A stretch of 64,000 nt of DNA. Origin: a virus. Made by a program: the position numbers and the translations under genes. Each line of letters starts with the position of its first letter. Position 1 is the stretch's first letter. The stretch spans positions 32,001 through 96,000 of IMG/VR virus record IMGVR_UViG_3300045988_125079; one strand, 5' to 3'. Shown one piece after another: positions 20 through 64,000 of this stretch. The notes beneath the pieces were generated by a model, which saw only the letters and a list, made by a program, of their open reading frames with translations, did not search any database and was not told the DNA's origin.

Positions 20-95
20 TGGCACGCCTGTTTCGATTCGAACGAAAATCCACTGGGTTTAGAGCCCATTCCTTTACCAATTAAGGTACAGACGC
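20..95 (-). tRNA. tRNA-Sup(CUA), amber suppressor (possibly Gln-derived)
   Basis: 76-nt minus-strand cloverleaf. Acceptor GCGTCTG/CAGGCGT with G1-U72 and U4-G69 wobbles. D arm CCTT-AATTGGTA-AAGG. Anticodon loop C-U-CUA-A-A. T arm TTTCG-TTCGAAT-CGAAA. G73 and CCA are encoded. Confidence 0.8.
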
Positions 96-1987: not shown

Positions 1988-2009
1988 GATTTTATCCTCC
2001 TAATTTATT

Positions 2010-2076
2010 TGAAGAAGTAGGATTCGAACCTACACTCGGGCTTTCGACCCAGCTCTACCAGTTAAGCTATTCTCCC
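2010..2076 (-). ncRNA. degenerate tRNA-like RNA (truncated anticodon arm)
   Basis: Acceptor GGGAGAA/TTCTTC with G3-U70. Normal D arm (GCTT-AACTGGTA-GAGC) and T arm (GTAGG-TTCGAAT-CCTAC). Only about 17 nt occupy the position of the anticodon arm plus variable loop. Loop TCGAAAG lacks U33. No CCA. The 5' end is preceded by the AUAU leader seen at other tRNAs here. Confidence 0.45.
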
Positions 2077-16581: not shown

Positions 16582-16594
16582 AATTCATTCCTCC

Positions 16595-17059
16595 TTACAG
16601 TTTCCACAGCTCCACATCAACACCCTGGAATGCAGCATCAATATTCTTTTTGACCGTATCCCAGTTTGCACCGCCACGGACACAGCCGATCTTATACGGC
16701 ATTGCTACCTTGAGGTTTCCAGCACGAGCGATATCTGCAACGGTACTGAGCGCTTTTGTCAGAGCATCGATAGAGGTGTACTGCTTCCCGTTATAACCGA
16801 AATCTTCCTGACCGAAACAGTTAGCGATCCAGCGGCTCCCCTCTTCATTCACAGGAACTAGCTGTGCTACACCGAGATTCTGAGCAGGATCATTCATACA
16901 GCGCTCACATAGATCACGATACTGTTCGTATACGGCTGGATACCGTTCACGAACTTCTTTAGCAACACCGGACCCCATAACACCCTGACAATTGACCTGA
17001 TGACAGATAATGTCAGCATCAGAATCAAATACGTTGCCCTCTTTGATCACAACAGCCAT
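16595..17059 (-). CDS. macro-domain protein (ADP-ribose binding/hydrolase)
   Basis: ICHQVNCQGVMGSGVAKEV is a typical macro-domain glycine-rich loop. Start set at the Met 9 nt after GGAGG. Confidence 0.7.
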   Translation of the reverse strand: MAVVIKEGNVFDSDADIICHQVNCQGVMGSGVAKEVRERYPAVYEQYRDLCERCMNDPAQNLGVAQLVPVNEEGSRWIANCFGQEDFGYNGKQYTSIDALTKALSTVADIARAGNLKVAMPYKIGCVRGGANWDTVKKNIDAAFQGVDVELWKL

Positions 17060-17065
17060 CAGCAT

Positions 17066-17278
17066 TCACCTCCGATTCAACTCTTTGATTCCAAAATATT
17101 GCGCTCCTCGTTGACTACGCAAATTAAACTGCTCAAGCTCTGGGGTCCATACAACCACATCCATCTCATCAAAAGCCCCTGCATGAATTAACTTCAGAGC
17201 TTCTTTTCTATCGCATTTGCGAATAACTTTTCCATCGTACCAAAAGCGAATTAAGTTATCAGTGGGTTTATAAATCAT
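17066..17278 (-). CDS. hypothetical protein (70 aa)
   Basis: ORF track trimmed to the ATG (MIYKPTDN), which overlaps the NAMPT stop (TGATG). Confidence 0.5.
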   Translation of the reverse strand: MIYKPTDNLIRFWYDGKVIRKCDRKEALKLIHAGAFDEMDVVVWTPELEQFNLRSQRGAQYFGIKELNRR

Positions 17279-22308: not shown

Positions 22309-22575
22309 TTACAGCAGTGACCGACACGTAAAAGGATTAGCCAGACCGACAAACATATCATCAGACCAAATAGTGTCTTTATTTGACTCTTCGATCATGT
22401 ATCCGCCCAGTCTATATCCGGAAATCGTTACAACTTTCCCAGCAAGACGTTTTCTTGTCGGCAACGACACTCCGATTGTCAGAATGCTTTTACCAGAAGA
22501 CATATAATGGTTTTTCCCTGGTTCAAATTTATCTATCACGCGAACTCTATCCCCAAGCTTATATTTGTAATCCAA
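22309..22575 (-). CDS. small beta-barrel-like protein with CxSLL-COOH tail (FTCRSLL)
   Basis: (TTG)DYKYKLGDRVRV...TIWSDDMF...FTCRSLL. Confidence 0.65.
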   Translation of the reverse strand: MDYKYKLGDRVRVIDKFEPGKNHYMSSGKSILTIGVSLPTRKRLAGKVVTISGYRLGGYMIEESNKDTIWSDDMFVGLANPFTCRSLL

Positions 22576-24645: not shown

Positions 24646-24934
24646 TGTTATTCTCCTTTGCTTTCATATAATTTTTGAGAAAAATACTCAAAAGTTCATC
24701 GGTGACTTCAAATCCTTGCCAGATTCGAGAGCTCTTATCTGTTCCAACTTGAGCATATAAATTTGTATTGCAATCAACCTCAATTGTAGAATCCGGATAT
24801 TTTTCAATCTCGTCATACTCATCAATTGCACTATTATTTATATAAAGATCAGCCTCATTTCTGCTATCAAAAAAACGAGGGAATTCGCACGATCCTTCAG
24901 AATCATATTCAAAAACACACCAGATCTTGTTCAT
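24638..24934 (-). CDS. hypothetical acidic protein (98 aa)
   Basis: ORF track. ATG start. Confidence 0.55.
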   Translation of the reverse strand: MNKIWCVFEYDSEGSCEFPRFFDSRNEADLYINNSAIDEYDEIEKYPDSTIEVDCNTNLYAQVGTDKSSRIWQGFEVTDELLSIFLKNYMKAKENNNV

Positions 24935-27675: not shown

Positions 27676-28908
27676 TTATGCGGCATCTTTTGGACGAAGA
27701 TCGTCTTTAATCATAGCCATCACATCAACATGGTATTTGTTGTTGGCTTTTGAAATCAACGCTTTGATTTTGTCTTTTTCTACCATTTTATAATAGCTGA
27801 TAAGACCATTAAGCTCCTGAACGTCTTCAATTGTCCAAGGAGCATTTTCCTTTTTACAGCGGATATAGTTGGACATCATAATCTTGAATGTCTTGATGTT
27901 ACGCCATCCAACCGTGATTTCATTGTTCTGATTCCACATCAAGCCGAGCACCCAGTTTTTACTCGAATGACGATTGCCGTAATGAGTTTTTTCTTCATTC
28001 AGAGTAAATGGAGCATGGATATACGCCAGAATATTTTTGATTACATCCTGCATCTCCATATAGTCAAAACTCAAATAACAACTAATCGTGATATCATCCG
28101 CATATCTTGTATAAGTAAAATCACGAGTAATGCCATCTTTCATTTTGAAACCATGACGAATTTTTCGACTCAGCAAATGATCAAATGGAATCATCATGAC
28201 ATTCGTAAGCCAAGGACTCAAGGGGCTTCCCTGCGGTAATCCATTGCGAAGAAAAGCAATCTTTAATGCATCACTCAACGCTTCATGGCCGCCGAATGGA
28301 TCTTGCATGATAAGAGCGAACGGATAAATCACACTCAACATTCCCATAACAAACTCTGGATTAGAGCTGGGGAAAAATCCGTGAAAGTCGAATTTTACAG
28401 ACCAGTTATTTTCATAAATAACCTGCTCTTTTTCTCCTGTTGTCGGGTTCGTTTTAGTCCGCACATGCCCTTCCTGATGTTTTTTCACAGCAGTCAAAGT
28501 AGACCGATGCGGAACATAAGCATGTGCCGCAGTATGATAGTCTGCAAGCATAAAGCTTTTTAACAACGTTTGCAGTTCGTTCAATGCGTCACTAAGGATT
28601 TTGTCTGGAGCATCAATTGGCCGCATGCCACCTGTTTTTTTGGGAATTTCATAGTGAGTATAGTGAACAGACATATCCGGTTCAGATTCGAGCTGTTCGT
28701 ATTTCTTATTAAACGCTTCGAGTTCTCGAATCATTCGGTTAATATCTGTCATGGCTCTCAAACGTGGGGTAAGTTCGTCTCTACAAACAGTCACAGTCGA
28801 AGTAACATCTTCTCGATATTTCAATTTCTCAGACTCGATAATGCCTGCAAGAATCTCATCGATTGTGATCTGTCTCGTTTTAGGGGCTGCTTTGTATGTA
28901 ATATACAT
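27676..28908 (-). CDS. reverse transcriptase (retron/Abi/DRT-like, stand-alone RT domain)
   Basis: RT motifs KKTGGMRPIDAP (1), HAYVPHRS (2a), KFDFHGFFPS (3), GLPQGSPLSPWLTN (4), YTRYADDITIS (5) and KNWVLGL (7). No endonuclease, maturase or Cas domains. Confidence 0.85.
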   Translation of the reverse strand: MYITYKAAPKTRQITIDEILAGIIESEKLKYREDVTSTVTVCRDELTPRLRAMTDINRMIRELEAFNKKYEQLESEPDMSVHYTHYEIPKKTGGMRPIDAPDKILSDALNELQTLLKSFMLADYHTAAHAYVPHRSTLTAVKKHQEGHVRTKTNPTTGEKEQVIYENNWSVKFDFHGFFPSSNPEFVMGMLSVIYPFALIMQDPFGGHEALSDALKIAFLRNGLPQGSPLSPWLTNVMMIPFDHLLSRKIRHGFKMKDGITRDFTYTRYADDITISCYLSFDYMEMQDVIKNILAYIHAPFTLNEEKTHYGNRHSSKNWVLGLMWNQNNEITVGWRNIKTFKIMMSNYIRCKKENAPWTIEDVQELNGLISYYKMVEKDKIKALISKANNKYHVDVMAMIKDDLRPKDAA

Positions 28909-30854: not shown

Positions 30855-32327
30855 TCAAGCAGCCGCCGTTTCCTTTTCTTTCTTTAAGATTTCGAACACC
30901 TCTGCGACTGTATAAAGATTACCAGCATCGTCCTCAAGATATTTCTTGGTAGAAATGGTTCGTTCATTGAACAGATCATGCATCAATTCGGAAACCACCG
31001 TAGAATCACCCCAGTTCAGGTAAGAACTGGAGCAGATAATAGTAGTAAGAGTCCCAATGAAATCATGATTCTGAGATAACGATTCAAAGGTCGCTTCATA
31101 GCCACCGTAGCAAGCATGGCGATCAATGTGCGGCTGACGGATACGATTTTCCATCATCTCCGGATGATCTTCCATATCACACTGAGTGACAACACGAACA
31201 CGATCATCAGAATTCACGCGCCATTCACAATATGTGCGGATCTTAAAGCGATGTTCTTTCCAAATAGCGCAGAAGAATTCTTTCGTTTCCTCAAAAGAGT
31301 ACGGGCTCTTCTGATAGATGTAGTTTCGTGCATCCCGTTTGTTCTCGACACTGTGCCGGAAAGCGCCTTCATCACAGTCATTCAAAAAGCCGGTGTAACC
31401 AACATACAGGTTGTCATCGCTCTTTCGGAGAAAGCTCAGAACTTTATTCGCTTTCAGATAATTTACAATAGCTGCCTCGTCTTCGTCTGTACAGCAAGCA
31501 CGATTACGAATTGCTTCAAGACGAATCTGCGCATCGTCCAGCTTGCTCCGATACTGGCGAATCTGATCGAAAGTATCCGTGATCCGACGTTCATAGCTGC
31601 GGATTTCTTCTTCTCCGCGACTAATAATCGAGTCATAATTGGCACTGCAGAATCCCTTCAGGCTTGCAGCCAATTTCTTTCCATAGAAATCGCCAGCGTC
31701 ATAGATCTTCTGCATGGCATCGCAGAACTTGGCATCCTCTTGATTGTATAAAAACTGGATAATGGCCTTTTCTTCTTCTGTAATCGGCACTTTCTTAAAG
31801 CACCAAGGAGTCAGACGGGGAAAACAACTCGCCGCCATATGCATAGCCTGCATAATTTTTTGACGGCCAACAAAGATGATAGTTCCCTTCTTTTTCTCAT
31901 TCTGGTAAACCGTTACATCACCAGCCTTATCAATGTACTGTGAGACATCATCAAGTTTCTTCCAGCCGAGCTTCTTATAATCCTCGTTATATTCTTCGCT
32001 CTTTTTCATGATTTCTGTAGCATTATCGGTATCGAGGATATTAACCAGAACACCATAACGGAAAGTCTTAAAAGGACTGTCTTCGTGAACAAACGTCTCT
32101 TTCGTCAGTTCGCTCTCCTCAGAGCTAAAATAACTCGTGATAACCTGCAACTGAATGCGGCCGCCGATCTCATTCATCGCCTTCAAACGTTCCTCGTTCA
32201 GAAACATTCTCATAACAGCCAGCAGCGTGTTGTCTTTCACTTCGGTATCGTTCTGAGAAAGGATATTCTGATAAGCATCGTCACACTCATTTGTGCCAAG
32301 CTTAACAATAATCGGGTTGAAAGCCAT
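30855..32327 (-). CDS. hypothetical protein (490 aa) in the ThiF-JAB cassette
   Basis: Long ORF. AGGAGGAAAAATT precedes the ATG. The segment QPHIDRHACYGG might be an E2-like His...Cys site, but this cannot be judged by eye. Confidence 0.7.
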   Translation of the reverse strand: MAFNPIIVKLGTNECDDAYQNILSQNDTEVKDNTLLAVMRMFLNEERLKAMNEIGGRIQLQVITSYFSSEESELTKETFVHEDSPFKTFRYGVLVNILDTDNATEIMKKSEEYNEDYKKLGWKKLDDVSQYIDKAGDVTVYQNEKKKGTIIFVGRQKIMQAMHMAASCFPRLTPWCFKKVPITEEEKAIIQFLYNQEDAKFCDAMQKIYDAGDFYGKKLAASLKGFCSANYDSIISRGEEEIRSYERRITDTFDQIRQYRSKLDDAQIRLEAIRNRACCTDEDEAAIVNYLKANKVLSFLRKSDDNLYVGYTGFLNDCDEGAFRHSVENKRDARNYIYQKSPYSFEETKEFFCAIWKEHRFKIRTYCEWRVNSDDRVRVVTQCDMEDHPEMMENRIRQPHIDRHACYGGYEATFESLSQNHDFIGTLTTIICSSSYLNWGDSTVVSELMHDLFNERTISTKKYLEDDAGNLYTVAEVFEILKKEKETAAA

Positions 32328-37948: not shown

Positions 37949-38353
37949 ACAGAGAGGAGGATTTAACCATGTACACCATCAGCGAGGAGCAAGCGGCTTA
38001 CCAATGCGCAATACTCGGTCGCGTCAGTAGATACAACACATAAGCGATTAGGTCTCTTATGGTGTCCATCCTCAAAGGCTGCCCTTTTCAAATTCACTCT
38101 CCGATACTCTGGGCACCGAGCATCTATGCCACTTTCGCAGGCAGTGCCAAATTCGCCTACTCATAATAGAGCCATGCACATCCACTGTGGCGGGTAGCTA
38201 CTCCCGTTGCATCATGGTTATTATTTTCGGTCAGAGCGTTATGGGTGTGTCAGAGGGGGAGTATGATCACCCACGGTGGAATTGCGCCACCCCAGCGACC
38301 GCGCACTACACTACGCTGCCGCATCGAACCTAGCTTTGCGGCTTGCACCGCTA

Positions 38354-38737
38354 TGGACCCGGTGGGATTCGAACCCACGTCCAAAACTAATACTCGATTA
38401 CAATTTTCTTACGCAATAGCCAGCATTTAGAATTTTGAAAAGGAATTCATGCCGCCGACACAGCAACCTTAGGGACGTAACGGTTGTTACATCACTCCAC
38501 CACTCGGTTTTGACGTCCGAGAACGCTAGTGTTTCTTACCGTTTACATCGGGTTCCGGGATTTATTCTTTGAACCGTCAAGCATTTACCTGCCTATCAGG
38601 ATGCTGTTTTGGGCACGGCATCAAGCCGCGCAACGATAACTGTTGTTGTTAGCGTTTATTTGTTTTTTGCCTCGTAAGGTGATGGCCGACCTGCGAATTG
38701 TAATTTTTCTTAGCCCTGTCGAAAACCTTTCGGGCCC
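38354..38737 (-). ncRNA. ~384-nt structured RNA closed by a tRNA-like acceptor stem and T arm
   Basis: 5' GGGCCCG pairs with 3' CGGGTCC, giving a G3-U70 pair. T arm GTGGG-TTCGAAT-CCCAC. A long-range 9-bp helix joins ATTACAATT and AATTGTAAT. Internal helices include GGACGT/ACGTCC and GTAAC/GTTAC. The 5' end follows the AUAU leader. Confidence 0.35.
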
Positions 38738-44190: not shown

Positions 44191-44457
44191 CTATTCTTCG
44201 AGTGTGATATCATCGTGACCAGCATCTTCAAGTGGTTCATCTGTTGCAAGCGCAATGATCTCGTCAATGTTGTTTTCGATTAGATATTTGACATCTTCCA
44301 GTCGCTGATCCAGAATTTCTTTCATCTGGGTTCTGACTGCTGTTTCACCGATATATGCGTAATTGCACTTCAGAGCCAGAATCAGGTCGTCAAACGTAAC
44401 GGGATCGAGAATCGTATCGCTGGTGAGCATGTCTTTGCCGAGTTTCCATTCAGACAT
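44191..44457 (-). CDS. hypothetical acidic protein (88 aa); ends TAG-TAA
   Basis: ORF track trimmed to MSEWKLGK, which has AAAGGAGA upstream. The TAG terminator is immediately followed by in-frame TAA. Confidence 0.55.
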   Translation of the reverse strand: MSEWKLGKDMLTSDTILDPVTFDDLILALKCNYAYIGETAVRTQMKEILDQRLEDVKYLIENNIDEIIALATDEPLEDAGHDDITLEE

Positions 44458-46462: not shown

Positions 46463-46742
46463 GTAATTTGAACCTCCTTTCTGATGTGTTCGTTCGCTTA
46501 CACGACCTTTAAGATACTTACGAAATTCAATTTTGAATCCGTGCACTGACTCGCGATCGAAAAACGTTTTCACCCTCGGGCGGAACGCTTGCTCTTACTG
46601 CTACGCTTTTTCAACGTGCTTTTAAAACTGGGCTTGGAACCAGCACGGTTCTGCAGAACTCGTGGCCGCATTACACTCCGGCACTATTGCACCGGAGCGT
46701 CCTCTGCGTTATTCATCGCAACAATCGAAATAAACGTCATAA

Positions 46743-54592: not shown

Positions 54593-54621
54593 TTGATATT
54601 TTGCATATTTAGGGGTATAAT
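54593..54621 (+). promoter_or_regulatory. sigma70-type promoter (TTGATA-17-TATAAT) for the plus-strand block
   Basis: TTGATA at 54593-54598, a 17-nt spacer, TATAAT at 54616-54621. Confidence 0.55.
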
Positions 54622-54698: not shown

Positions 54699-56027
54699 AT
54701 GAAATTTTATGACACTTCCGCCCTACTCGATCTCGGTGCTGCAGCATTCACAAGTCAGTTCTTGATTGCAGACATGACTTTGCACGAGTTAGAAGATATT
54801 AAAACAAGTGGTAAAAAGAACGAAGAAACTCGTTAGAAGGCACGTACCGTAACCCGCCTGCTTGCTGAACACCGCGACGATGGTAGCTTCCGAGTAGTAG
54901 CCGTTCCCATGTCTTCCCTATTCTACATCTTGGATGGCAAGCCAATCAGTGACAATAATGACGCGACGATCATGGCAACCGCCTATTGGTATCTGGATGA
55001 GCTGTGTCACAATTTGAATGACGCGATTGAAGCCGGTCTCACAGACGCACAGCGACAGATCCAAGCTGATATCGATTCTTTTAAATTTGTCACCAGCGAC
55101 TTAAGTTGTGCCAATATCGCCAGCGGTATTCTTGATCTACCGACTGAGTTCACTTTTCCTAACGCAACAGCTGCGAAAAACGACTATAAAGGATGGATAG
55201 AGGTCGCCCTAGAAGATGGCGGCGAAGAAGCGTTGGCTATGGCCTACTCTAAAGATGTCGAGCAGAAGAACTTGTTTGATACGCCCACTAACGGTTATGT
55301 CTTAATCCCAAATGCAGACGCTGATGGTAACACGGCTGGACTTCGCTGGGATGGCTCGCGCTATGTACCTATTAAGTATAAAAAAATCAGCAACCGCTTC
55401 ACTGGGGACATTCGCCCTCTCAACAATCAGCAGAAACTCGCCTTTGATATGCTGCAGAACGACAACATCACCGTCAAGATGCTTGCTGGAACATTCGGCA
55501 GTGGTAAAACGATGCTCATGGTGTCATCCGCTATTGATATGATCGAGAAACATAAAATTGACAAACTGATCTGGATTCGCAACAACATCGAAGTCAAGAA
55601 CACAAAAGAACTGGGAGCACTTCCCGGCACTCTACTAGAGAAGCTAGGAGCGGCCTCATTTGCTGGACCTCTTGCAGACCATTTGGGCGGAGAAAGCGGT
55701 TTGGAGTATTGGATCAAGAATGGGCAAGTAGAGGTGGCGCATCTCGGCTTCATTCGTGGGCGCGACTATAAGAATGCTATCTTGCTAGTATCAGAAGCAG
55801 AGAACTTGACAAAAGAACACATCCAGTTGCTGCTCGGCCGTGTAGGTGAAGGATCTATGCTGTGGCTTGACGGCGACTTGAAGCAGACGGATGAGGCGGT
55901 ATTTGAAAATAACAGTGGTATGCGCAAGGCAATCTCTGCTTTGACTGGAAATCCGCACTTTGCTTATGTGTACATGCCGAAGACAGAACGCAGCGAGACC
56001 GCACAGCTTGCCGATCTACTCGATTGA
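54699..56027 (+). CDS. phoH: PIN-domain + PhoH-like ATPase (YlaK-like), with in-frame TAG at 54834-54836
   Basis: ATG at 54699 gives MKFYDTSALLDLG...HELEDIK (PIN-like) in the same frame as ORF 54909-56027, which has Walker A GTFGSGKT. The two parts are separated by a single TAG. Confidence 0.7.
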
Positions 56028-56040
56028 GGCGTCGCGCAAG

Positions 56041-56475
56041 ATGATAGAAGTAAAAATAAGCGGCCTGAAAGTAGCGGACTACTGGTCTCCTACCGACGGA
56101 TGGAACTATGACGCCATTGATAGTCTTGCAAAAGAATTGTACGACCGCTACCGAGAAGCCGAAGCCGAACAGACAGTGGAGTTATTCAAGAACTACATAG
56201 AAAAAATGAGTATACTACATGAAATCGATCCATTCTCTATTGACTATATCCGCGATCAGATTGAGTGGATGATTCGTCCTTTGATGCATCGTGGAATGAC
56301 GATGAAAAAACGGTTGCAGATAAACGCATTGACCTATGAGATCGTAGAAAAGTTGCTTCCCTCTTATCTTGATAATATGGCTATGCTACATCAGTTACAA
56401 AAAGAATTAGAAAATGCGGCTTTGCATCGATATTTGATTACGCCATTTGGCAAAAGGACAGCTGTATGGAAATAA
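56041..56475 (+). CDS. hypothetical protein (144 aa)
   Basis: ORF track trimmed to MIEVKISG. Confidence 0.55.
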   Translation: MIEVKISGLKVADYWSPTDGWNYDAIDSLAKELYDRYREAEAEQTVELFKNYIEKMSILHEIDPFSIDYIRDQIEWMIRPLMHRGMTMKKRLQINALTYEIVEKLLPSYLDNMAMLHQLQKELENAALHRYLITPFGKRTAVWK

Positions 56476-56714
56476 TGAATGAAGCTAATTTGAATATGTT
56501 CTGGGCGATTGATGAGTATTTGACTTATAAGATGTCGCGATACTTTAATGCGTATATTCTTCTGATTGGTTTAAAAGACGATTCTGGTTTCTTTATGAAT
56601 TTTGAAGGTGGCAAAGGTGGAGTCGAAGGTCATTTATATAAAGAAAAAGGTCCAGCGGTATTCGCATTTATTGGCGACAATTACAAGATTCTACGAAATG
56701 ACGATGCAAAGTAG
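56466..56714 (+). CDS. hypothetical protein (82 aa); ends in TAG (would extend to 56771 if TAG is sense)
   Basis: ORF track. The next in-frame stop after the TAG is TGA at 56769-56771. Confidence 0.5.
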   Translation: MEIMNEANLNMFWAIDEYLTYKMSRYFNAYILLIGLKDDSGFFMNFEGGKGGVEGHLYKEKGPAVFAFIGDNYKILRNDDAK

Positions 56715-56790
56715 ATTGTAGATTTAGCATTAAAACTATGCAGTCAATACGAAGATCAATTATTTAATTGAATAGGAGGTTCCACAGGGT

Positions 56791-57264: not shown

Positions 57265-57605
57265 CAACAGATATTTTTGGAACGAGTAATTTTAAAAAGA
57301 ACGAAAAGGAAATACTAGACCTGGCTCGACATAAATTATATGCAGAACTTAGTGAAGAGCGTGGACGTAAAGTAGATTCAGTAACGATTTATGTTGATAT
57401 GGATCGCAGATATATACATTATGACTGGGATTTAACTTTTACTCTTAATCCGAAATATTTTATCAAAGTCGGAATTATATCTGGGTTACGGATGGAAATT
57501 ATTGAAGGCGACGCTGCAGAACTAATTTATAAGCGATATCTTGAATTGGTTAGCAAGTATACAATGCAATCTAAAAAATCGTTTGTTTGTAGGAGTTTGC
57601 TATGA
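57261..57605 (+). CDS. protein with CxSLL-COOH tail (FVCRSLL)
   Basis: The ATG sits inside the previous gene's tail codons (cTATGA), with AGGAG 7 nt upstream. Confidence 0.65.
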   Translation: MTTDIFGTSNFKKNEKEILDLARHKLYAELSEERGRKVDSVTIYVDMDRRYIHYDWDLTFTLNPKYFIKVGIISGLRMEIIEGDAAELIYKRYLELVSKYTMQSKKSFVCRSLL

Positions 57606-58021
57606 ATTACACTGTAACCGCCAGAGTCGCAATGCTGACTTCTGTAAATTATAATGCCAAAAATGGAATATACGTCCCATTAAACGATAATAACATGGTA
57701 TGGGTCATGCCATTCAAATCGTACCGTGATTTTAGAGCATGGTATTTAAGAGCAGACGATAGTTCAAAAATATTTCATCAGATATGGTTTGGACCCGGAT
57801 ATACCTATGATTCCATGAGTGATGTAGCGACACGGCTTGCAAAAGAATTTGATCAGCTTAACAATATGGATTATTACCGACTTGTTAATAACGATAGTAT
57901 TTTAGATTTGATACATCCTATCAAGCTTGACTATACGTGGACTTTCGATCATGTCGTAAAAATCACAGCGCCATGGTATGAACGAAATAAAAAGAATCTC
58001 GTATGCTACAGCCTATTGTAA
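57602..58021 (+). CDS. protein with CxSLL-COOH tail (LVCYSLL)
   Basis: Same ATGA-type coupling as 57261. Confidence 0.65.
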   Translation: MNYTVTARVAMLTSVNYNAKNGIYVPLNDNNMVWVMPFKSYRDFRAWYLRADDSSKIFHQIWFGPGYTYDSMSDVATRLAKEFDQLNNMDYYRLVNNDSILDLIHPIKLDYTWTFDHVVKITAPWYERNKKNLVCYSLL

Positions 58022-58047
58022 ACGTAGTGGGGAAGGAACTTCGTAGA

Positions 58048-58320
58048 ATGACACGAGAAGAAACTATAAAGTTAGTTGCTGAGAGCATATTTAGCGATCC
58101 AAGTATTAAGGCAACTCAACGGCAAGATGATCTTATTAAAGTAATAACATGTATGGCTGTGAATGGTGTTGACCATGTTTTGTATAAAGATAAAAAATAT
58201 AGACTTGATTGCGACGCAGGTTGGTTATTGTCTGACTTTATTATAAACGATTTTTATACATATCCGAAACCAATATACATAAATAAACAGCAGCCGCTAA
58301 TTTGCAGGAGTTTATTATGA
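58048..58320 (+). CDS. protein with CxSLL-COOH tail (LICRSLL)
   Basis: ORF track trimmed to MTREETIK, which has GGGGAAGGAA upstream. Confidence 0.6.
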   Translation: MTREETIKLVAESIFSDPSIKATQRQDDLIKVITCMAVNGVDHVLYKDKKYRLDCDAGWLLSDFIINDFYTYPKPIYINKQQPLICRSLL

Positions 58321-59075
58321 ATAGAATTGATTTTCAAAATGGATCGTAGATTCAAACGATAGAAACCAATCACGACGAATCTCAGGATGAAGTAATTAAT
58401 GTTTGGTCTGCAGATGGCAAACCAGTTAGAATCTGTCGTGAAAGCAATCCGAGCATTCAAGTGGTAAAACAATGTGCTGCAGATTATATAAAAAGATGGG
58501 CTGAAGTAAAACATTCAATTTCGACAATGCCTGAAGTATCAGACAAGTTTGACTATGAGTTTTATAACTACTCCCCTTCTCCGACTATTAATACGATTGA
58601 TTTATTTAATCGAGAATATGAAATGATAGTAAATGCAGAACGACAATCACATAAAGAAGAGGACGATATGAGAATTTTATTTGTAAGTCCAGAAAAATAC
58701 GATGCCGTATGTTCTTGGTATGATAATTTAGACACTGTACAAAAACACCGTAAAGTAATCGTAATATGCAAATCGCCGGACGAATTCCGTGAAAAGTTTG
58801 ACTATAGTAAAATGAATGCACAGTGTACTATGTTCTACTTTGATGAATATCTTGGATTGGCTAAGTCGTTTGAATATTGCAAATTATTTACTAAGTTGTA
58901 TGGAGAAGCTGATGTTAGATACATCTGTGGAAATAAAATGCGACAGATAAATATAGATGATTTAATGTGCCGCAATACATTTGATTGGTTTAAAGAGTTT
59001 TCTGTCGTGCCAGAATGCTTGGAAGATCTTATTCGAAATAGTAAGAGAGCCTTCGTTTGTAAGAGTCTATTATGA
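58317..59075 (+). CDS. protein with CxSLL-COOH tail (FVCKSLL) and in-frame TAG at 58347-58349
   Basis: The coupled ATG at 58317 (ttATGa) gives MNRIDFQNGS-TAG-IQTIETNHDES..., in frame with ORF 58461-59075. Confidence 0.55.
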
Positions 59076-59111
59076 TGTTTAATATAAAAAGCATTAAAGA
59101 GGTGAACACAT

Positions 59112-59300
59112 TTGGAACCCATCAGAGCATACGATCTCATCAACGGTTACTTTACACCAGAAATTAAAACTAATTCGTTTGTAATCGACAGAGCTAAAAA
59201 TGTACAAGATGAAATTGAAGATTTACGAAAACAGCTTATTGCTGTACAACGTGAGTTAGAAAAAATGAAGAAGCCCTTCCGTTGTGAATCGCTTCTATAA
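59112..59300 (+). CDS. coiled-coil protein with CxSLL-COOH tail (FRCESLL)
   Basis: TTG start 5 nt after AAAGAGGTGA. Confidence 0.55.
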   Translation: MEPIRAYDLINGYFTPEIKTNSFVIDRAKNVQDEIEDLRKQLIAVQRELEKMKKPFRCESLL

Positions 59301-59311
59301 GGAGGTCATTT

Positions 59312-59590
59312 ATGAAAGAAGATAATTTTTCAAAACAGGATATTTATAATATTGGATTCGCCGTAGTTGATGCGGTACGCGATTACGCAGTTACATATGA
59401 AAATATTATTGACGCAATTCAGATTTATGCTGAATGGCAAGAGTTAATTGGTGGTGCCTCGCTCCACGATACACTCTGGATGGATGATGGAACGCCAATG
59501 TCTCCTTCTTTGACGCGATATTTGTATTGTAAGCTATACGGGCTGAAAGAATATGATAACAACGACGAGGAGGATTATGGCGATGAGTGA
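59312..59590 (+). CDS. hypothetical acidic protein (92 aa)
   Basis: ORF track. AAGGAGG upstream. Confidence 0.6.
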   Translation: MKEDNFSKQDIYNIGFAVVDAVRDYAVTYENIIDAIQIYAEWQELIGGASLHDTLWMDDGTPMSPSLTRYLYCKLYGLKEYDNNDEEDYGDE

Positions 59591-59759
59591 TCGCAAGCGT
59601 AATAAGGTTTCGAAGAGTACATATATGCGCGAAGCTCGTAAACAGCGCATGATTGAAAACCAGTTTATGCACGAAGTTGAGAAGGCTCAGGAAGCCGCGC
59701 AGCCCAAACATGATAAGTGGCAGCGTAACAAACGGCGCGAATGGGATGATGAAGAGTAA
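59577..59759 (+). CDS. small basic protein (60 aa)
   Basis: ORF track trimmed to MAMSDRKRNK, which has GAGGAGG upstream. Confidence 0.5.
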   Translation: MAMSDRKRNKVSKSTYMREARKQRMIENQFMHEVEKAQEAAQPKHDKWQRNKRREWDDEE

Positions 59760-59767
59760 GGAAGGAG

Positions 59768-60139
59768 ATGTATCGCAGCATGGATAAAGAGCCTAAAAAG
59801 CCGGGCGGAGAGAATGATACAGAGCGAGACGATATTCAGGAGATCCGTGTCAACTCTATTCCGCTGATGGTGCTTATCGCTGGTGTTTTAAGTTCCGTTG
59901 ATTTTGTTGATTGGATGTTTACTATCGCAGAAATGCTGGTTGTATTCGTGCTTACATATCAGATTCTAGGGCGTGTGCTCTTTACTGCTCTGGTGGTTAC
60001 GCCCATTTTGGTTGTGTTTATCAGCAGGTGTTTGGCGGCCTACGATGAGATCACGTATAGCGACGACGATATGGGCGGCGATAGCGAAGATAACGATGAT
60101 GACCATTTTAACGACCACTGGAACAATTTGATTCATTGA
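59768..60139 (+). CDS. membrane protein (2-3 TM) with acidic C-terminus
   Basis: Hydrophobic segments IPLMVLIAGVL, MLVVFVLTYQILG and VVTPILVVFI. Confidence 0.6.
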   Translation: MYRSMDKEPKKPGGENDTERDDIQEIRVNSIPLMVLIAGVLSSVDFVDWMFTIAEMLVVFVLTYQILGRVLFTALVVTPILVVFISRCLAAYDEITYSDDDMGGDSEDNDDDHFNDHWNNLIH

Positions 60140-60152
60140 GGAGTGATATTAT

Positions 60153-62696
60153 TTGTTTAGTCCACCATTATATAGCGTACTAAAATTTAACTTGAATTAT
60201 ATCGTTTCTCATAACTATAATTTTAAACTGACACCAGAAGAGATGGAGCAGTATAAAGTCTTGCAGGGTGACGATATGCTGTTCAGACAGATTCGGCTCA
60301 TTTCCGACGACTAGAATAAATTCCAGCGCTTTATTATCTTTGTTGATGCAACAGGCGGCCAAAACCACCCTGATGCTATCGATCATTTAGTAGAGCATGG
60401 ATTCAAATTTAATGGTCAAAAATATCTGTTCTGTGAACGTAGTGCAAGTATGGTTCGTCAGAGTATGTTGAGTTTTGTTGAGCGACATATCTACCCTGAA
60501 CTCGATCGCCGTGTAAGCATGGAACTGGATTTTTCTGAGACACCAACTGTCCTGAGCAAGTATTATGCATATCGTGGTTTGATGCTGAGCAGCTGCCACT
60601 GTCTGGAGAACTGGTATCCCAAAATGATTGTTGTTCCAGATTATATGACAACGATCAAGAATCAGTGGATCGAGTACCTGGTAGACAAAACTGTGACGTT
60701 TAATGACCGCAAAACAGGCAAAGAACGTACCTGGACCCAGAAAGATATCGCCACAAAAACAGTTGACATTGATATCAACGCCTTTGATGGTGCTGGAATA
60801 TGCCACCCAAGTATCATGCGCGAATTTGAAAAGCGTATCGGTACTTCTGAACGGATGAATAGCTTGATTCTACGTGCTCCATATATCAAGGGTTGCTTAC
60901 ACGAGATTGATTACGAGCGTTTTTTTGAAGAGAACGGCGTTACAAAAATCAAGGATATCTGGGGTATGGAATATGATGTAACACCTGGCAGTGAACCAAT
61001 GATTATTATTACTGCTTCAATGTACAAGGGTCTCAAATATTTCAAGAAAACTGGTACCTATTCTGACTGGGAGAGATACTGGGAACTCTTCAAGAAGTAC
61101 GATAACTGCCTTGGTGTAGCCAAATGGAACTTTACGCTTGAACAAGAACCGCTTTCCACCCGTAGCAACTATCAGGTTATTCAAGACCTACAGCTTGACA
61201 ATGAGTCTTTTAAGCATCTAGCCGACGACAGCATTACCTGGTATCAGAATATTGTCAAAGGCGACCCGATTTATACATACTGCTTCCTTGGTTTACTTGC
61301 CGAGAACAATGACCCGATGAATCATTACATGGCTGCTGCCCTGCGTAATCCAGTGATGGTAAAAGAGCCGGCAATCAAAGATTATATTCACTCGCTGCTT
61401 GATAAATATCGCAATGAGATGAAGTGCGGTCGGCTTTGGATGAATGCTACTTTTAAGTTCTGGGCTCCTGACCTTATCGCACTATTGCAGCATATTGGTG
61501 GCCTTCCTGTGACTGGCTGCCTTGAAGACGGTGAGTTCTACAGTTTCGATCGTCGTGGTGTGATGGAAGGAGACCGCTTAATTGAGCGCAATCCCCATAT
61601 CTCTGTTGCTGAGCATGTAAAGGCCAAGGCCGTAGACAACGAATACACCCATAAATACTGCAGCCATCTTCAGAATGTTGCTATGGTGAATATCAAATCC
61701 ATCGTGGCTTCCAGACTTAATGGTTCAGATTTTGACGGCGACCTGGTTTTAATCATCGACAATCCGCTGATGATGAGTGGTGTTCCTGATAATATCCCCA
61801 TTACACTTGATGTTGAAGATAAGATCACTGCGTTAGCAGAATGTGATATTGTGAAGAACAAAGTTGCTTGCACCATTCGTGGATTGAAAAGTTCTATTGG
61901 TGAGATCTCAAACTACGCAACTGCATACCATAATAAGGTTCCGACCATGGAAAAGACCAAAAAGCTCTATCACGATAATATTTCGCTTTTGAGTATCTGC
62001 AACGGAAAAGCTATCGATTATGCCAAAACCGGTGTTCTGTATCCGATCCCGCGTAATGTAGCAGCTTATGGTCGTCCTCTACCCTACTTTATGAAGTATG
62101 CAGGTCCTTACTACGCACGTTTACATAATCTCAGCAAGGCACATAGCAACATGAACCTGCTTTGCATGAGTCTGGAGCGTTGGGAGCGCGGTGTACGGTG
62201 GCGCAAAGAGCCGGCAGGCAGCTTTGATTGGCATATCATGTACGACCCAGAGGTCTCCTATGACCAGGCAGTCTTTGATGAGATCGAAGCCATTTTCTTG
62301 GATTTCAACAAATGCCGCAAGGAACAGCTTGAGTTCGAAAAGAAATGCCGCAACTGGCAATTATATCATAAGGACATCGAGTCGCGTATTACCAAAGAAG
62401 AAGCCAAGACATATGAAACGAACTGGCAGGCGATCTACAATGTCTACCGTAACAAGTGCAAGCTGGTGTGTCCTGATGTGAGAGAGCTGGCGAATATTCT
62501 TGTAGTGCTTTGCTATGAGAAGTATCCAAATAAATTTAAGAAGTTCTTGTGGCACATGGCCGGCGCTGGTGTGGTCGAAAATATCAAGCCGGTTCTTGTT
62601 CAGTTACCAGTTCACGACCCGAACGGTGAGTATGAATATCTTGGCCAGCGATATAGTTTGGCTGAACCGAAAACTTATGAAGCGAGGGTGAAATAA
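60153..62696 (+). CDS. YonO-like single-subunit RNA polymerase (DPBB, DFDGD), with in-frame TAG at 60312-60314
   Basis: NGSDFDGDLVLII resembles the universal NADFDGD Mg-binding loop. ORF 60450-62696 extends upstream in frame through one TAG to a TTG at 60153, which lies 9 nt after GAGGAG. Confidence 0.6.
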
Positions 62697-62697
62697 T

Positions 62698-62997
62698 ATG
62701 GATAATTTGAAAGATCCGGTTACAATGGATAAACCCGAGCAAATGAATACACTTCATTGTCTATTTTGCTGCTCTACAAAAGTATATCCTGTTGTTGGAA
62801 AAGATATAAAATGTAAAAACAAATATCCGCCATATCAAGAAATTAAAATTCCAAGTATTGATGGACTATATTGCCCTGATTGTAAAACAGCTTATGCTAT
62901 AGACAAAAATCTTGACGATGTAATTCAGCAGTGTAGAAATATTTCGGGTGATTTAAATTTTTATCCATCAGAAATAAAGGAGAAAATTGATGTTTAA
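62698..62997 (+). CDS. zinc-ribbon protein (99 aa)
   Basis: CLFCC...CKNK...CPDCK. Confidence 0.55.
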   Translation: MDNLKDPVTMDKPEQMNTLHCLFCCSTKVYPVVGKDIKCKNKYPPYQEIKIPSIDGLYCPDCKTAYAIDKNLDDVIQQCRNISGDLNFYPSEIKEKIDV

Positions 62998-63546: not shown

Positions 63547-63699
63547 ATGAATATGGCCGCGTTAATTGCATATTGGAGAGCTAGACCATTTTCGTTCATA
63601 GAAAAGTATTTTCATCTTCGTCTATATTGGTATCAAAAATTATATTTACGAATGATCTATGATAGGAGGTTAAATGGCATATACAACTTTCTACTGTAA
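63547..63699 (+). CDS. small hypothetical protein (50 aa)
   Basis: Hand-translated MNMAALIAYWRARPFSFIEKYF... AAGGAGG lies 10 nt upstream. Overlaps the next ORF by 26 nt. Confidence 0.4.
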   Translation: MNMAALIAYWRARPFSFIEKYFHLRLYWYQKLYLRMIYDRRLNGIYNFLL

Positions 63700-64000
63700 T
63701 GAAAATATGTTGCTTGATCATTGGCAGGACTATCACGAGTCAAATCTGATGTTGCGAAACCTGCTAAAGCGAACCTCCCTCTCCCCTATTGAATGCGCCA
63801 CGTTTTATTATGAGCGGATGAAAAATCCTGAGTCTGTCAGTTATGATCGCAGCCACTTGATTCAGATGTTCAGCAGAGGTCGTAAAAATAACGCGCCTAT
63901 ATTTGACGTACATCAAGTTGTACTTTATCAGAAAGATCTGGACTATATTACAGAGGCGCGCCGAAAATATCATATCAACTACGCACAATTACGTGTTCTG
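63674..64000 (+). CDS. hypothetical protein, 5' partial (runs off the window)
   Basis: ATG after ATAGGAGG. Open to the window end (MAYTTFYCNENMLLDHWQDYHE...). Confidence 0.5.
   Translation, partial: MAYTTFYCNENMLLDHWQDYHESNLMLRNLLKRTSLSPIECATFYYERMKNPESVSYDRSHLIQMFSRGRKNNAPIFDVHQVVLYQKDLDYITEARRKYHINYAQLRVL

What the first reader, a model, noticed from the sequence alone, without database searches (positions are those of the whole stretch)
60153..62696. In-frame TAG near the N-terminus of the RNA polymerase gene
Upstream of the track ORF (60450) the same frame stays open to a TTG at 60153, 9 nt after GAGGAG, apart from one TAG at 60312-60314. The sequence reads ...MEQYKVLQGDDMLFRQIRLISDD-TAG-NKFQRFIIFVDATGGQNHPDAIDHLVEHGFKFNGQKYLFCERSAS-MVRQ... 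The upstream peptide has ordinary globular composition. Full-length polymerase would then depend on tRNA-CUA, a possible timing switch.
Basis: partly seen in the sequence, partly recalled or inferred. Interest (0 to 1): 0.7.

Follow-up and report, generated by a model that had tools for sequence, protein, structure and literature searches.

The report
Amber codon read as tryptophan
The stop codon inside this gut phage's RNA polymerase gene is real and is read through, because the phage carries a mutated tryptophan tRNA that turns TAG into a sense codon across its late-gene block. This is a known kind of phage code change, but apparently to tryptophan rather than the usual glutamine.

Summary
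The polymerase gene is one 847-codon ORF (TTG 60153 to TAA 62696, Shine-Dalgarno GAGGAG 9 nt upstream) with a single TAG at 60312-60314.

It is neither an error nor a pseudogene. The TAG is fixed in 19 distinct haplotypes from several metagenomes. Codons 1-53, codons 55-99 (which hold no in-frame start codon) and the rest of the gene are under equally strong purifying selection (pN/pS 0.022, 0.029, 0.019). Homologues are uninterrupted, start at the same N-terminus, and have Tyr, Asp or Asn at this loop position.

The TAG is not special to the polymerase. The + strand block from 54.7 kb onward (PIN-PhoH, small genes, polymerase, then terminase and portal in relatives) carries in-frame TAGs and no TAG terminators. 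The - strand accessory block, which holds the tRNA(CUA) at 20-95, has none.

Across relatives, in-frame TAGs occur only in contigs with tRNA(CUA). That tRNA sits in the slot where sister phages have tRNA-Trp(CCA) and differs in the anticodon loop at one base. Ten of 14 fixed TAG columns are Trp in relatives and none is Gln. So TAG most likely means Trp, while public gene calls use Gln.

The timing-switch idea is the published model for recoded phages. It is plausible here but untested.

The parts
60153..62696 (+). Single-subunit two-barrel (YonO/QDE-1-type) RNA polymerase gene. It has 847 codons, a TTG start, a TAA stop and one in-frame TAG.
   Evidence: sequence. (Pfam RdRP PF05183, 61.3 bits against a cut-off of 23.8). 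(phrog_8308, 3e-92). (SPbeta YonO, 23.6% identity over 82% of the query, E 3e-19). (the model of a 71% homologue matches QDE-1/RDR2, E 1e-22, TM about 0.5).
60138..60143 (+). Shine-Dalgarno GAGGAG, 9 nt before the TTG start. It overlaps the TGA stop of the upstream gene 59768-60139.
60312..60314 (+). In-frame TAG, codon 54 of the polymerase. It lies in a surface loop between helix 42-51 and strand 57-65. Relatives have Tyr (26), Asp (25) or Asn (3) here.
   Evidence: codon table across 78 loci. (AlphaFold model of P0002; pLDDT of the N-terminal blocks 85-96). (the TAG is retained in 19 haplotypes).
60450..60452 (+). ATG for Met100. It looks like the start of the standard-code ORF but is an invariant internal residue of the E-R-S-A-S-M-x-R motif. 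No Shine-Dalgarno sequence precedes it.
61728..61742 (+). Catalytic D-F-D-G-D motif (residues 526-530). D526, D528, G529 and D530 are invariant in 39 homologues.
20..95 (-). tRNA with a CUA anticodon (amber suppressor). It is a type I tRNA with a G73 discriminator and anticodon loop CUCUAAA. It lies in the slot after tRNA-Lys(UUU) that holds tRNA-Trp(CCA) in non-recoded relatives.
   Evidence: tRNA model, 58.6 bits. (synteny and alignment; the best non-self similarity is to tRNA-Trp, score 31 against at most 16 for other types).
54699..56027 (+). PIN-PhoH gene, the first gene of the recoded + strand block, with an in-frame TAG at 54834-54836 (codon 46). The Pfam PIN_4 domain spans the TAG.
   Evidence: (PIN_4 residues 5-101; PhoH 1e-35). 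(relatives have Y 46 / A 22 at the site).
56466..56771 (+). Small gene with an in-frame TAG at 56712-56714 (codon 83). The site is Trp in 17 relatives.
58317..59075 (+). Gene whose ATG overlaps the TGA of the previous gene, with an in-frame TAG at 58347-58349 (codon 11). The site is Glu in one distant relative and TAG in three close ones. This is the least certain of the four sites.
54593..54621 (+). Best sigma-70-like promoter match in 52-64 kb (TTGATA, 17-nt spacer, TATAAT; 11 of 12), about 78 nt upstream of PIN-PhoH. It is a candidate host-RNAP promoter for the block that includes the polymerase gene. It is a consensus match only.
   Evidence: overall the scan is at chance level: 36 found against 31.4 expected.

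Best explanation
The polymerase gene is one continuous 847-codon ORF. Its TAG at codon 54 is translated as a sense codon by the phage's own tRNA(CUA), most probably as tryptophan.

This tRNA descends from a phage tRNA-Trp through a C35-to-U change in the anticodon (CCA to CUA). The lineage that carries it has accumulated TAG codons in the + strand block that runs from PIN-PhoH through the polymerase into the terminase, portal and structural genes. TAGs at invariant Trp positions are synonymous TGG-to-TAG changes. TAGs at tolerant surface positions came from Tyr, Glu or Ser codons. The polymerase site is of the second kind: TAC (Tyr) in the sister lineage became TAG in a variable loop.

The - strand accessory block, which encodes the tRNA cluster, stays in the standard code.

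Shown: the ORF is continuous and under selection on both sides of the TAG; TAG reassignment co-occurs with tRNA(CUA); recoding is block-wise; TAG aligns with Trp.

Inferred: charging with Trp by the host TrpRS; competition with host RF1; and the consequence that polymerase, PhoH and the packaging and structural proteins can only be completed once the suppressor tRNA has accumulated. That would be a translational gate on the late programme, and because the polymerase itself is gated it would form a feed-forward loop.
For: Continuity of the ORF:
- 415 homologues are nearly all 820-860 aa and share the same N-terminus.
- MT836002 and Thomasclavelia phage TR-TP1 have uninterrupted ORFs, and TR-TP1's annotated CDS starts 54 codons upstream of the point that aligns with the first post-TAG residue.
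- Q38, D40, R45, R48 and M100 are invariant.
- The N-terminal 110 residues form one ordered alpha/beta unit with strands on both sides of position 54.
- Within the TAG clade (19 haplotypes, 95-96% DNA identity, above 99% protein identity), pN/pS is 0.022 for codons 1-53, 0.029 for 55-99 and 0.019 for 100-847. There is no in-frame start codon between the TAG and 60450.

Reassignment:
- There are four verified in-frame TAGs in window 54.7-62.7 kb and no TAG terminators in that block.
- Contigs with tRNA(CUA) have 210 in-frame TAGs in 30 loci, against 23 TAA and 22 TGA. Contigs with tRNA-Trp(CCA) have 5 in 7 loci, which is noise level.
- The tRNA-region block is at noise level in both groups.
- The sister lineage L015, with TAC in the polymerase, pairs with tRNA-Trp(CCA) (L144) and has no in-frame TAG.

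Amino acid:
- Of 14 TAG columns fixed in three or more loci, 10 are Trp (9 invariant), 3 are variable and contain Tyr, 1 is Ser/Leu, and none is Gln.
- Mean BLOSUM62 score is 7.29 for W, 1.86 for Y and -1.60 for Q.
- tRNA(CUA) is syntenic with tRNA-Trp(CCA) and most similar to it, and has the same anticodon loop apart from nucleotide 35.

Selection for read-through:
- The base after TAG is a purine in 14 of 15 fixed columns, against 50% after TGG.

Model:
- The layout matches the published early-standard/late-recoded model.
Against: - There is no expression, proteomic or aminoacylation data. Decoding and the amino acid are inferred from comparative genomics only.
- The polymerase site itself says nothing about the amino acid, because relatives have Y, D or N there.
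- A tRNA-Trp with U35 is known to be mischarged with Gln in E. coli (Su7; my own knowledge), so partial Gln insertion cannot be excluded.
- Four of the 14 fixed columns are not Trp.
- For the gating role: TAG density in the polymerase gene (about 1 per 2.5 kb) equals the block average. Three tRNA(CUA) genomes (L047, L050, L051) have no TAG in the polymerase.
- The expression timing of the tRNA, the host and the host's RF1 activity are all unknown.
- The promoter assignment is a consensus match in a scan that is at chance level overall.
Confidence: 0.8

Rival explanations
1. TAG is read as glutamine (genetic code 15), as in crAss-like phages and phAss-1 and as assumed by the public gene call for this very gene.
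For: The public cluster P0001 (1061 member sequences) shows Q at the site, but only because the caller applied code 15; the DNA has TAG. Code 15 is the only amber reassignment reported by Borges et al., and phAss-1, from a broader related group, was assigned Gln. U35 is a GlnRS identity element in E. coli (my own knowledge).
Against: None of the 14 fixed TAG columns in recoded contigs is Gln in relatives. Nine are invariant Trp. Q has a mean BLOSUM62 score of -1.60 and is positive in 0 of 14 columns. The tRNA(CUA) resembles tRNA-Trp (score 31) and not the phages' own tRNA-Gln(UUG) (score 11), and it occupies the tRNA-Trp slot.
Confidence: 0.1
2. The TAG in the polymerase gene has no regulatory purpose. 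It is a neutral by-product of living with a suppressor tRNA: a Tyr-to-TAG change drifted to fixation at a tolerant loop position.
For: The position is variable (Y/D/N) and lies in a loop. TAG density in the polymerase is not enriched relative to neighbouring genes. Some tRNA(CUA) genomes lack any TAG in the polymerase (L047, L050, L051). Seven different polymerase columns carry TAG in different lineages, with no single conserved site.
Against: 47 of 77 polymerase genes carry a TAG, and these arose independently at seven columns. The two large lineages both have it within the first 54 codons (residues 20 and 54), where premature termination is cheapest and most complete. TAGs show a strong 3'-purine context, which implies selection on decoding efficiency. 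In-frame TAGs are confined to one strand block. None of these observations separates drift from selection for gating.
Confidence: 0.4
3. The TAG is a genuine stop. The gene is split or decaying, giving a 53-residue peptide plus an N-terminally truncated polymerase that starts at ATG 60450, or no functional polymerase at all.
For: Under the standard code the longest ORF is 60450-62696.
Against: There is no start codon between the TAG and 60450 and no Shine-Dalgarno sequence before 60450, yet codons 55-99 have pN/pS 0.029 within the TAG clade. Met100 is an invariant internal residue. A start at Met100 would remove most of an ordered 110-residue domain. The TAG is kept in 19 haplotypes without any further disabling mutations.
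Confidence: 0.03
4. The TAG is an assembly or sequencing error, or it encodes pyrrolysine (following ARAGORN's 'tRNA-Pyl' label).
For: ARAGORN labels any CUA anticodon as Pyl.
Against: The same TAG is present in every locus of the ~99%-identical group (24 independent IMG/VR contigs, from at least six metagenomes) and in a Logan assembly. The tRNA has a canonical cloverleaf: a D-loop with GG, a T-loop TTCGAAT, a 5-nt variable loop, and a full-length match to the general tRNA model. tRNA-Pyl lacks these features (my own knowledge). TAG columns align with Trp.
Confidence: 0.01

Closest known systems
Amber-recoded gut phages using genetic code 15 (crAss-like, Lak, Garnet, Amethyst and some Agate clades: Borges et al., bioRxiv 10.1101/2021.08.26.457843; Peters et al., PMC9523058; phAss-1, PMC10607447)
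   Same: The phage encodes a tRNA(CUA). In-frame TAGs are concentrated in the late, structural and packaging block, while the block that encodes the tRNA stays in the standard code. Close relatives use the standard code. The proposed function is translational gating of late genes.
   Different: Here TAG aligns with Trp and not Gln, and the suppressor is a tRNA-Trp derivative. Recoding is light: about 13% of Trp-type codons and usually one TAG per gene. The phage's own YonO-type RNA polymerase is among the gated genes.
NCBI genetic code 32 (Balanophoraceae plastid, TAG = Trp; my own knowledge) and the 19.4% of phage suppressor tRNAs given a Trp isotype by Kienbeck et al. 2024 (PMC10879173, 'rarely reported code 32')
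   Same: TAG is read as Trp. In Kienbeck et al. the Trp isotype of some phage tRNA(CUA) was predicted computationally.
   Different: The plastid case is an organelle-wide code, not a switch during infection. Kienbeck et al. reported isotype predictions only, without codon-level alignment evidence, synteny with tRNA-Trp(CCA) or gene-level mapping.
YonO of Bacillus prophage SPbeta and the QDE-1/RDR cellular RNA-dependent RNA polymerases (two double-psi beta-barrel single-chain polymerases)
   Same: Pfam RdRP domain, the DxDGD catalytic motif, the fold, and a phage single-subunit polymerase of about 840 residues. YonO transcribes SPbeta late genes (my own knowledge of Forrest et al. 2017).
   Different: Only about 24% identical to YonO. 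No in-frame stop is known in yonO. The N-terminal ~70 residues are conserved only within the closer family (47% identity or more).
E. coli Su7 (supU), an amber suppressor derived from tRNA-Trp by the same C35-to-U anticodon change (my own knowledge)
   Same: The same single-base route from tRNA-Trp(CCA) to a CUA anticodon.
   Different: Su7 is a laboratory or spontaneous suppressor and is largely charged with Gln by GlnRS. Here the comparative data require a Trp-compatible residue, and the acceptor stem has diverged (G1-U72, C2-G71) from the syntenic tRNA-Trp.

Membership tests
YonO / QDE-1-type two-barrel RNA polymerase (Pfam RdRP PF05183) | Match to the Pfam RdRP model above the gathering threshold | tested here: met
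   61.3 bits against a cut-off of 23.8, E 9.5e-17, residues 20-595 of the post-TAG peptide.
YonO / QDE-1-type two-barrel RNA polymerase (Pfam RdRP PF05183) | Catalytic DxDGD loop | tested here: met
   D526-F-D528-G529-D530, invariant in 39 homologues.
YonO / QDE-1-type two-barrel RNA polymerase (Pfam RdRP PF05183) | Fold similarity to solved QDE-1/RDR2 structures | tested here: met
   The model of the 71%-identical homologue P0002 (pLDDT 90.7) matches QDE-1 5fsw_A with E 1.2e-22 and TM 0.54, and RDR2. It matches crAss-like phi14:2 gp66 weakly (E 7e-4). A sequence-profile search of the PDB found nothing.
YonO / QDE-1-type two-barrel RNA polymerase (Pfam RdRP PF05183) | DNA-dependent transcription of phage late genes | not testable with these tools
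   Requires biochemistry or infection transcriptomics.
Stop-codon-recoded (amber-reassigned) phage | Multiple in-frame TAGs inside conserved genes and domains, in excess over TAA and TGA | tested here: met
   Four sites in the window. In 30 tRNA(CUA) relatives: 210 TAG against 23 TAA and 22 TGA.
Stop-codon-recoded (amber-reassigned) phage | Phage-encoded suppressor tRNA with a CUA anticodon that co-occurs with in-frame TAGs | tested here: met
   Window 20-95. Co-occurrence across 42 paired contigs.
Stop-codon-recoded (amber-reassigned) phage | TAG avoided as a terminator in the recoded block, with the early block in the standard code | tested here: met
   0 of 13 (window) and 0 of 18 (L016) genes in the block end in TAG. 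The tRNA-region block has in-frame TAG at noise level. Window 1-54 kb has no convincing read-through ORF; relatives were available only for about 0-13 kb and 50-64 kb of the window.
Stop-codon-recoded (amber-reassigned) phage | Host uses the standard code; recoded peptides are detected | not testable with these tools
   The host is unknown. Distant homologues are in Clostridia: Anaerolentibacter and Gehongia and Thomasclavelia phages. No proteomic data are available.
Genetic code 15 (TAG = Gln) | In-frame TAG aligns with Gln in homologues, and the suppressor is of Gln type | tested here: not met
   0 of 14 fixed columns are Gln. Q has a mean BLOSUM62 score of -1.60. The tRNA(CUA) scores 11 against tRNA-Gln(UUG) and 31 against tRNA-Trp.
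TAG = Trp code (as in NCBI code 32) | In-frame TAG aligns with conserved Trp | tested here: met
   10 of 14 fixed columns are Trp, 9 of them invariant in 23-71 relatives. W has a mean BLOSUM62 score of 7.29.
TAG = Trp code (as in NCBI code 32) | The decoding tRNA is a tRNA-Trp derivative | tested here: met
   It occupies the same slot between tRNA-Lys(UUU) and tRNA-Ser(UGA) as tRNA-Trp(CCA) in about 12 relatives. The anticodon loop is CUC[C/U]AAA and the discriminator is G73.
TAG = Trp code (as in NCBI code 32) | The tRNA is charged with Trp and Trp is found in the protein | not testable with these tools
   Needs an aminoacylation assay or mass spectrometry.
Pyrrolysine decoding (tRNA-Pyl) | Atypical tRNA-Pyl architecture: short D-loop without GG, 3-nt variable loop, 6-bp anticodon stem (my own knowledge) | tested here: not met
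   The D-loop is AAUUGGUA, the T-loop is UUCGAAU, the variable loop has 5 nt and the anticodon stem has 5 pairs. There is a full-length match to the general tRNA model.
Split gene / internal re-initiation | A start codon with a ribosome-binding site downstream of the stop, and relaxed constraint on the bypassed segment | tested here: not met
   There is no ATG/GTG/TTG between the TAG and 60450 and no Shine-Dalgarno sequence before 60450. pN/pS for codons 55-99 is 0.029.

The most novel reading that the evidence does not exclude
A widespread human-gut phage lineage runs a natural amber-to-tryptophan genetic code. It was created by a single anticodon change (CCA to CUA) in a phage-borne tRNA-Trp whose unmutated form still sits at the same locus in sister phages. 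The phage uses this code to gate translation of its own single-subunit RNA polymerase and of the packaging and structural genes that polymerase presumably transcribes, forming a two-layer (transcription plus translation) late switch. Public gene calls currently mistranslate these proteins with Gln.
Probability: 0.45. Interest if true: 0.75.

Novelty: new variant of a known kind. Interest (0 to 1): 0.6.

Why it matters
[quoted passage not shown] The only hint of TAG-to-Trp is a tRNA isotype prediction.
- **Three kinds of evidence here.** This lineage supplies codon-level, tRNA-level and phylogenetic evidence for amber-to-Trp. It includes natural intermediates: sister phages with tRNA-Trp(CCA) in the same slot and no in-frame TAG, and one contig (L132) with both tRNAs.
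- **Annotation.** Pipelines that assume code 15 put Gln at invariant Trp positions of the terminase, portal, PhoH and polymerase. One such cluster alone has 1061 member sequences.
- **Biology.** A gated phage RNA polymerase is a concrete, testable node for the hypothesis that recoding times the late programme.
- **Genetic-code engineering.** The phage tRNA is a natural amber suppressor that apparently works with host TrpRS in Clostridia and competes with RF1, helped by a 3'-purine context.

Tried and rejected
- Mechanical ORF coverage with each stop codon made sense in turn did not discriminate between codes.
- An exact-pattern search for the tRNA's anticodon arm in viral contigs found nothing, because relatives' tRNAs have diverged. 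I reached them through a neighbouring gene instead.
- ARAGORN on 40 polymerase loci found no tRNAs there.
- dN/dS between the window and the TAC sister lineage was unusable because synonymous sites are saturated. I replaced it with within-clade pN/pS.
- The PDB sequence-profile search gave no hits.
- The promoter and terminator scan was at chance level overall.
- Pfam on ten unannotated ORFs gave nothing. Among the roughly 30 larger ORFs scanned there was no release factor or TrpRS.
- The 'one TAG per gene' pattern in L016 is not statistically significant on my own rough estimate (about 0.13 probability of no gene having two).
- An N-terminal bias of polymerase TAG columns (2 of 7 within the first 54 residues) is not significant either (about 0.07).
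- Literature phrase searches for amber/TAG/UAG 'to tryptophan' returned nothing. The library is incomplete, so this is weak evidence of novelty.
Full report
**1. The observation**

TTG lies at 60153-60155 and GAGGAG at 60138-60143, nine bases upstream and overlapping the TGA of the preceding gene. The frame is open to TAA at 62694-62696 except for one TAG at 60312-60314, which is codon 54 of 847. The first ATG, GTG or TTG after that TAG is the ATG at 60450, which is why the standard-code ORF list starts there. The product is a YonO/QDE-1-type two-barrel RNA polymerase:
- Pfam RdRP scores 61.3 bits against a cut-off of 23.8, and phrog_8308 gives 3e-92.
- It is 23.6% identical to SPbeta YonO over 82% of its length.
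- It has a DFDGD catalytic loop.
- The AlphaFold model of a 71%-identical homologue (pLDDT 90.7) matches QDE-1 and RDR2 with E about 1e-22.

**2. The gene begins at 60153, not 60450**

- Of 415 homologues, nearly all are 820-860 residues long and begin M-[FY]-[SA]-P-P-L-Y.
- The closest GenBank relatives have uninterrupted ORFs: MT836002 (66% identity, TTG start) and Thomasclavelia phages TR-TP1 and TR-TP2 (41%). TR-TP1's annotated CDS starts 54 codons upstream of the point that aligns with the first post-TAG residue.
- In an alignment of 39 homologues of 47-71% identity, Q38, D40, R45 and R48 are invariant. All four lie upstream of the TAG. Met100 is an invariant internal residue of an E-R-S-A-S-M-x-R motif.
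- In the model, residues 1-110 form one ordered alpha/beta unit (pLDDT 85-96) with strands on both sides of position 54. That position lies in the loop between helix 42-51 and strand 57-65.

**3. The TAG is a fixed feature that is translated**

Among 75 related IMG/VR loci, every locus of the ~99%-identical group has TAG at this codon: 24 in the codon table, and 22 full-length genes plus the window. They come from at least six metagenomes. The ~95% sister group (L015, L019, L035) has TAC. More distant groups have TAY (Tyr), GAY (Asp) or AAY (Asn). A Logan assembly carries the same TAG.

Within the TAG clade there are 19 distinct haplotypes at 95-96% DNA identity but above 99% protein identity.

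| Polymerase codons | Segment | pN/pS |
|---|---|---|
| 1-53 | Upstream of the TAG | 0.022 |
| 55-99 | Between the TAG and Met100 | 0.029 |
| 100-847 | Rest of the gene | 0.019 |

Codons 55-99 hold no in-frame start codon and can be translated only by reading through the TAG. This is the strongest single argument that the TAG is decoded. It disposes of the assembly-error, pseudogene and split-gene readings.

**4. The TAG is not unique to the polymerase**

Read-through ORF scanning and comparison with relatives identify four in-frame TAGs in the window's + strand block.

| Window position | Gene | Evidence | Residue in relatives |
|---|---|---|---|
| 54834 | PIN-PhoH, codon 46 | Pfam PIN_4 spans the TAG | Y/A |
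| 56712 | Small gene 56466-56771, codon 83 | Alignment with relatives | Trp in 17 relatives |
| 58347 | Gene 58317-59075, codon 11 | ATG overlaps the previous stop; least certain | Glu in one distant relative |
| 60312 | Polymerase, codon 54 | See sections 2 and 3 | Y/D/N |

- None of the 13 genes in that block ends in TAG.
- The best sigma-70-like match in the region sits just upstream of PIN-PhoH at 54593-54621, but the scan as a whole is at chance level.
- In close relatives the block continues beyond the window's end into a metallophosphatase, small and large terminase, and portal. Each of these has one TAG.
- The - strand block (about 1-52 kb) holds accessory genes: NAD salvage, nucleotidyltransferase, HNH nucleases, recombinases, a reverse-transcriptase-like gene, an anti-repressor, the tRNA cluster and a tmRNA. 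It shows no convincing in-frame TAG.
- In relatives, the tRNA-region block has in-frame TAG at noise level whether or not the contig is recoded.

**5. The decoder**

The window encodes a tRNA with a CUA anticodon at 20-95 on the - strand. I fetched the tRNA regions of 77 relatives through a neighbouring gene. The tRNA order is conserved...Phe-(Tyr)-Lys(UUU)-[X]-Ser(UGA)-Glu-Gln.
- Slot X holds tRNA(CUA) in 45 loci, tRNA-Trp(CCA) in about 12, and nothing in 6. One contig has both tRNAs.
- The CUA tRNAs are much more similar to the syntenic tRNA-Trp than to any other tRNA type (score 31 against at most 16). They share the G73 discriminator and the anticodon loop CUC[C/U]AAA, which differs only at nucleotide 35.

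Pairing the loci by contig name gives a clean correlation.

| Contig group | Polymerase-region loci | In-frame TAG | TAA | TGA |
|---|---|---|---|---|
| tRNA(CUA) | 30 | 210 | 23 | 22 |
| tRNA-Trp(CCA) | 7 | 5 | 7 | 2 |
| Neither tRNA in the slot | 4 | 4 | 0 | 0 |

The TAC-bearing sister L015 pairs with tRNA-Trp(CCA) (L144) and has no in-frame TAG.

**6. Which amino acid**

I grouped the TAG sites into orthologous columns. Of the 14 columns fixed in three or more recoded loci:
- ten are Trp in non-TAG relatives, and nine of those are invariant Trp across 23-71 sequences;
- three are variable positions that include Tyr (the polymerase and PIN-PhoH sites among them);
- one is Ser/Leu;
- none is Gln.

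Scoring all 20 residues against those columns gives W 7.29, Y 1.86, F 0.70 and Q -1.60. The pattern is what a TAG = Trp code predicts. TGG-to-TAG is synonymous and can occur at invariant Trp positions, whereas TAY-to-TAG is a replacement and survives only at tolerant positions.

Within the polymerase gene itself, seven independent TAG columns exist across lineages. All are at Trp or at Trp/Tyr/His-type variable positions. One is at residue 20 in a second large lineage of 16 loci.

The base after an in-frame TAG is a purine in 14 of 15 fixed columns and in all four window sites, against 50% after TGG codons in the same genes. By classical knowledge of amber suppression context (my own knowledge), this suggests selection for efficient read-through against RF1.

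**7. Mechanism proposed**

- **Shown:** a continuous, constrained ORF; block-wise TAG reassignment tied to tRNA(CUA); correspondence of TAG with Trp.
- **Inferred:** host TrpRS charges the tRNA. Early in infection TAG still terminates, so PIN-PhoH, the polymerase and the packaging and structural proteins are truncated. The polymerase would end after 53 residues, which is cheap and complete. Once tRNA(CUA) from the standard-code block accumulates, full-length proteins are made.

If this YonO-type enzyme transcribes the late genes as YonO does in SPbeta (my own knowledge), gating the polymerase as well as its targets would form a feed-forward loop. This is the published model for recoded phages, applied to a new gene.

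The evidence does not show that the polymerase TAG is selected for this role:
- TAG density in the polymerase equals the block average.
- Three tRNA(CUA) genomes lack a TAG in the polymerase.
- The site is a tolerant loop.

I give neutral fixation about 0.4.

**8. Comparison with what is known**

- Amber recoding with suppressor tRNAs and late-gene bias is well described. Borges et al. state they observed only TAG-to-Gln and TGA-to-Trp in phages on standard-code hosts.
- phAss-1, from a broader related group of Clostridia phages, was assigned Gln.
- The only hint of TAG-to-Trp that I found is in Kienbeck et al., who predicted a Trp isotype for 19.4% of 180 phage suppressor tRNAs and called it 'rarely reported code 32'. 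Phrase searches found nothing else, but the library is incomplete.
- The public gene call for this very polymerase (P0001, 1061 member sequences) translates the TAG as Gln and starts at Met31.

I therefore file the polymerase as a member of the YonO/QDE-1 family, the genome as an amber-recoded phage, and the code as a Trp variant rather than code 15.

**9. Verdict**

On its own, an in-frame TAG in a recoded phage is ordinary. The case is moderately interesting because of the well-supported amber-to-Trp assignment, the syntenic CCA/CUA tRNA series, and the fact that the phage's own RNA polymerase is gated.

Noticed in passing
window 57602-59300 (+); also L016 6549-8715: Tandem small proteins upstream of the polymerase share a C-terminal motif C-x-S-L-L-stop (LVCYSLL, LICRSLL, FVCKSLL, FRCESLL; CVCESLL or CYCESLL in L016). 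The codons differ, so the conservation is at the protein level. The function is unknown; it could be a C-terminal signal or degron.
   Followed up: partly
all in-frame TAG sites; window 54834, 56712, 58347, 60312: The base after an in-frame TAG is a purine in 97% of 325 sites and in 14 of 15 fixed columns, against 50% after TGG in the same genes. All four window sites are followed by A. This suggests selection for efficient suppression.
   Followed up: yes
L016 4874-19879: Eight consecutive larger genes (PIN-PhoH, g7288, polymerase, g12923, metallophosphatase, TerS-like, TerL, portal) each carry exactly one TAG and none has two. The pattern is suggestive of one gate per gene, but my rough estimate is not significant (about 0.13).
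   Followed up: partly
window 44191-44193 and 265-267 (- strand): The few TAG terminators in the standard-code block have back-up stops. One TAG is followed directly by TAA; the other (an HNH gene) is followed by TAA three codons later.
   Followed up: partly
window 46628-46708 (-): Type-P5 twister ribozyme match (45.9 bits against a gathering score of 37.6) among small - strand ORFs.
   Followed up: no
window 38351-38737 (-): Phage-encoded tmRNA (Rfam 92.4 bits; ARAGORN tag peptide ANNNSYRCAA), flanked by tRNA-Met and tRNA-Pro. A tmRNA in a genome that creates premature-stop products early in infection may be relevant to the recoding.
   Followed up: no
window 2009-2076 (-): An additional tRNA-like element found by Rfam (39.5 bits) but not by ARAGORN, next to an HNH endonuclease gene. 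HNH genes (265-1026, 1433-1987) are interspersed with the tRNAs.
   Followed up: no
L098-L114 and others, in the slot after tRNA-Thr: Relatives carry odd tRNAs that ARAGORN calls 'Tyr(ata)' (21 loci) or '???(at)' with a two-base anticodon (21 loci), just downstream of tRNA-Thr.
   Followed up: no
window 15832-18756 (-): An NAD salvage module: nicotinamide phosphoribosyltransferase (17281-18756, phrog_448, 2e-162) and NAD synthetase (15832-16581).
   Followed up: no
window 22507-24675 (+), 30858-32327 (-), 27679-28908 (-): Large ORFs of 723 aa and 490 aa have no Pfam or PHROG match. A 410-aa reverse-transcriptase/polymerase-like ORF (phrog_2825, phrog_1423) lies nearby.
   Followed up: no
L016 against window 50-64 kb: Strong mosaicism. 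A contig whose polymerase protein is 100% identical shares only window 59282-62701 (92% DNA identity) and 63664-64000 by blastn. Its PhoH carries a TAG at a Trp position where the window has TGG, while the window's PhoH has its TAG at a different codon.
   Followed up: partly
singleton TAG columns in relatives: TAGs present in only one or two loci often align with Gln, Thr, Glu or Ile and are followed by a pyrimidine. They are probably ordinary nonsense variants or errors rather than recoded codons. Some are in non-recoded contigs.
   Followed up: partly
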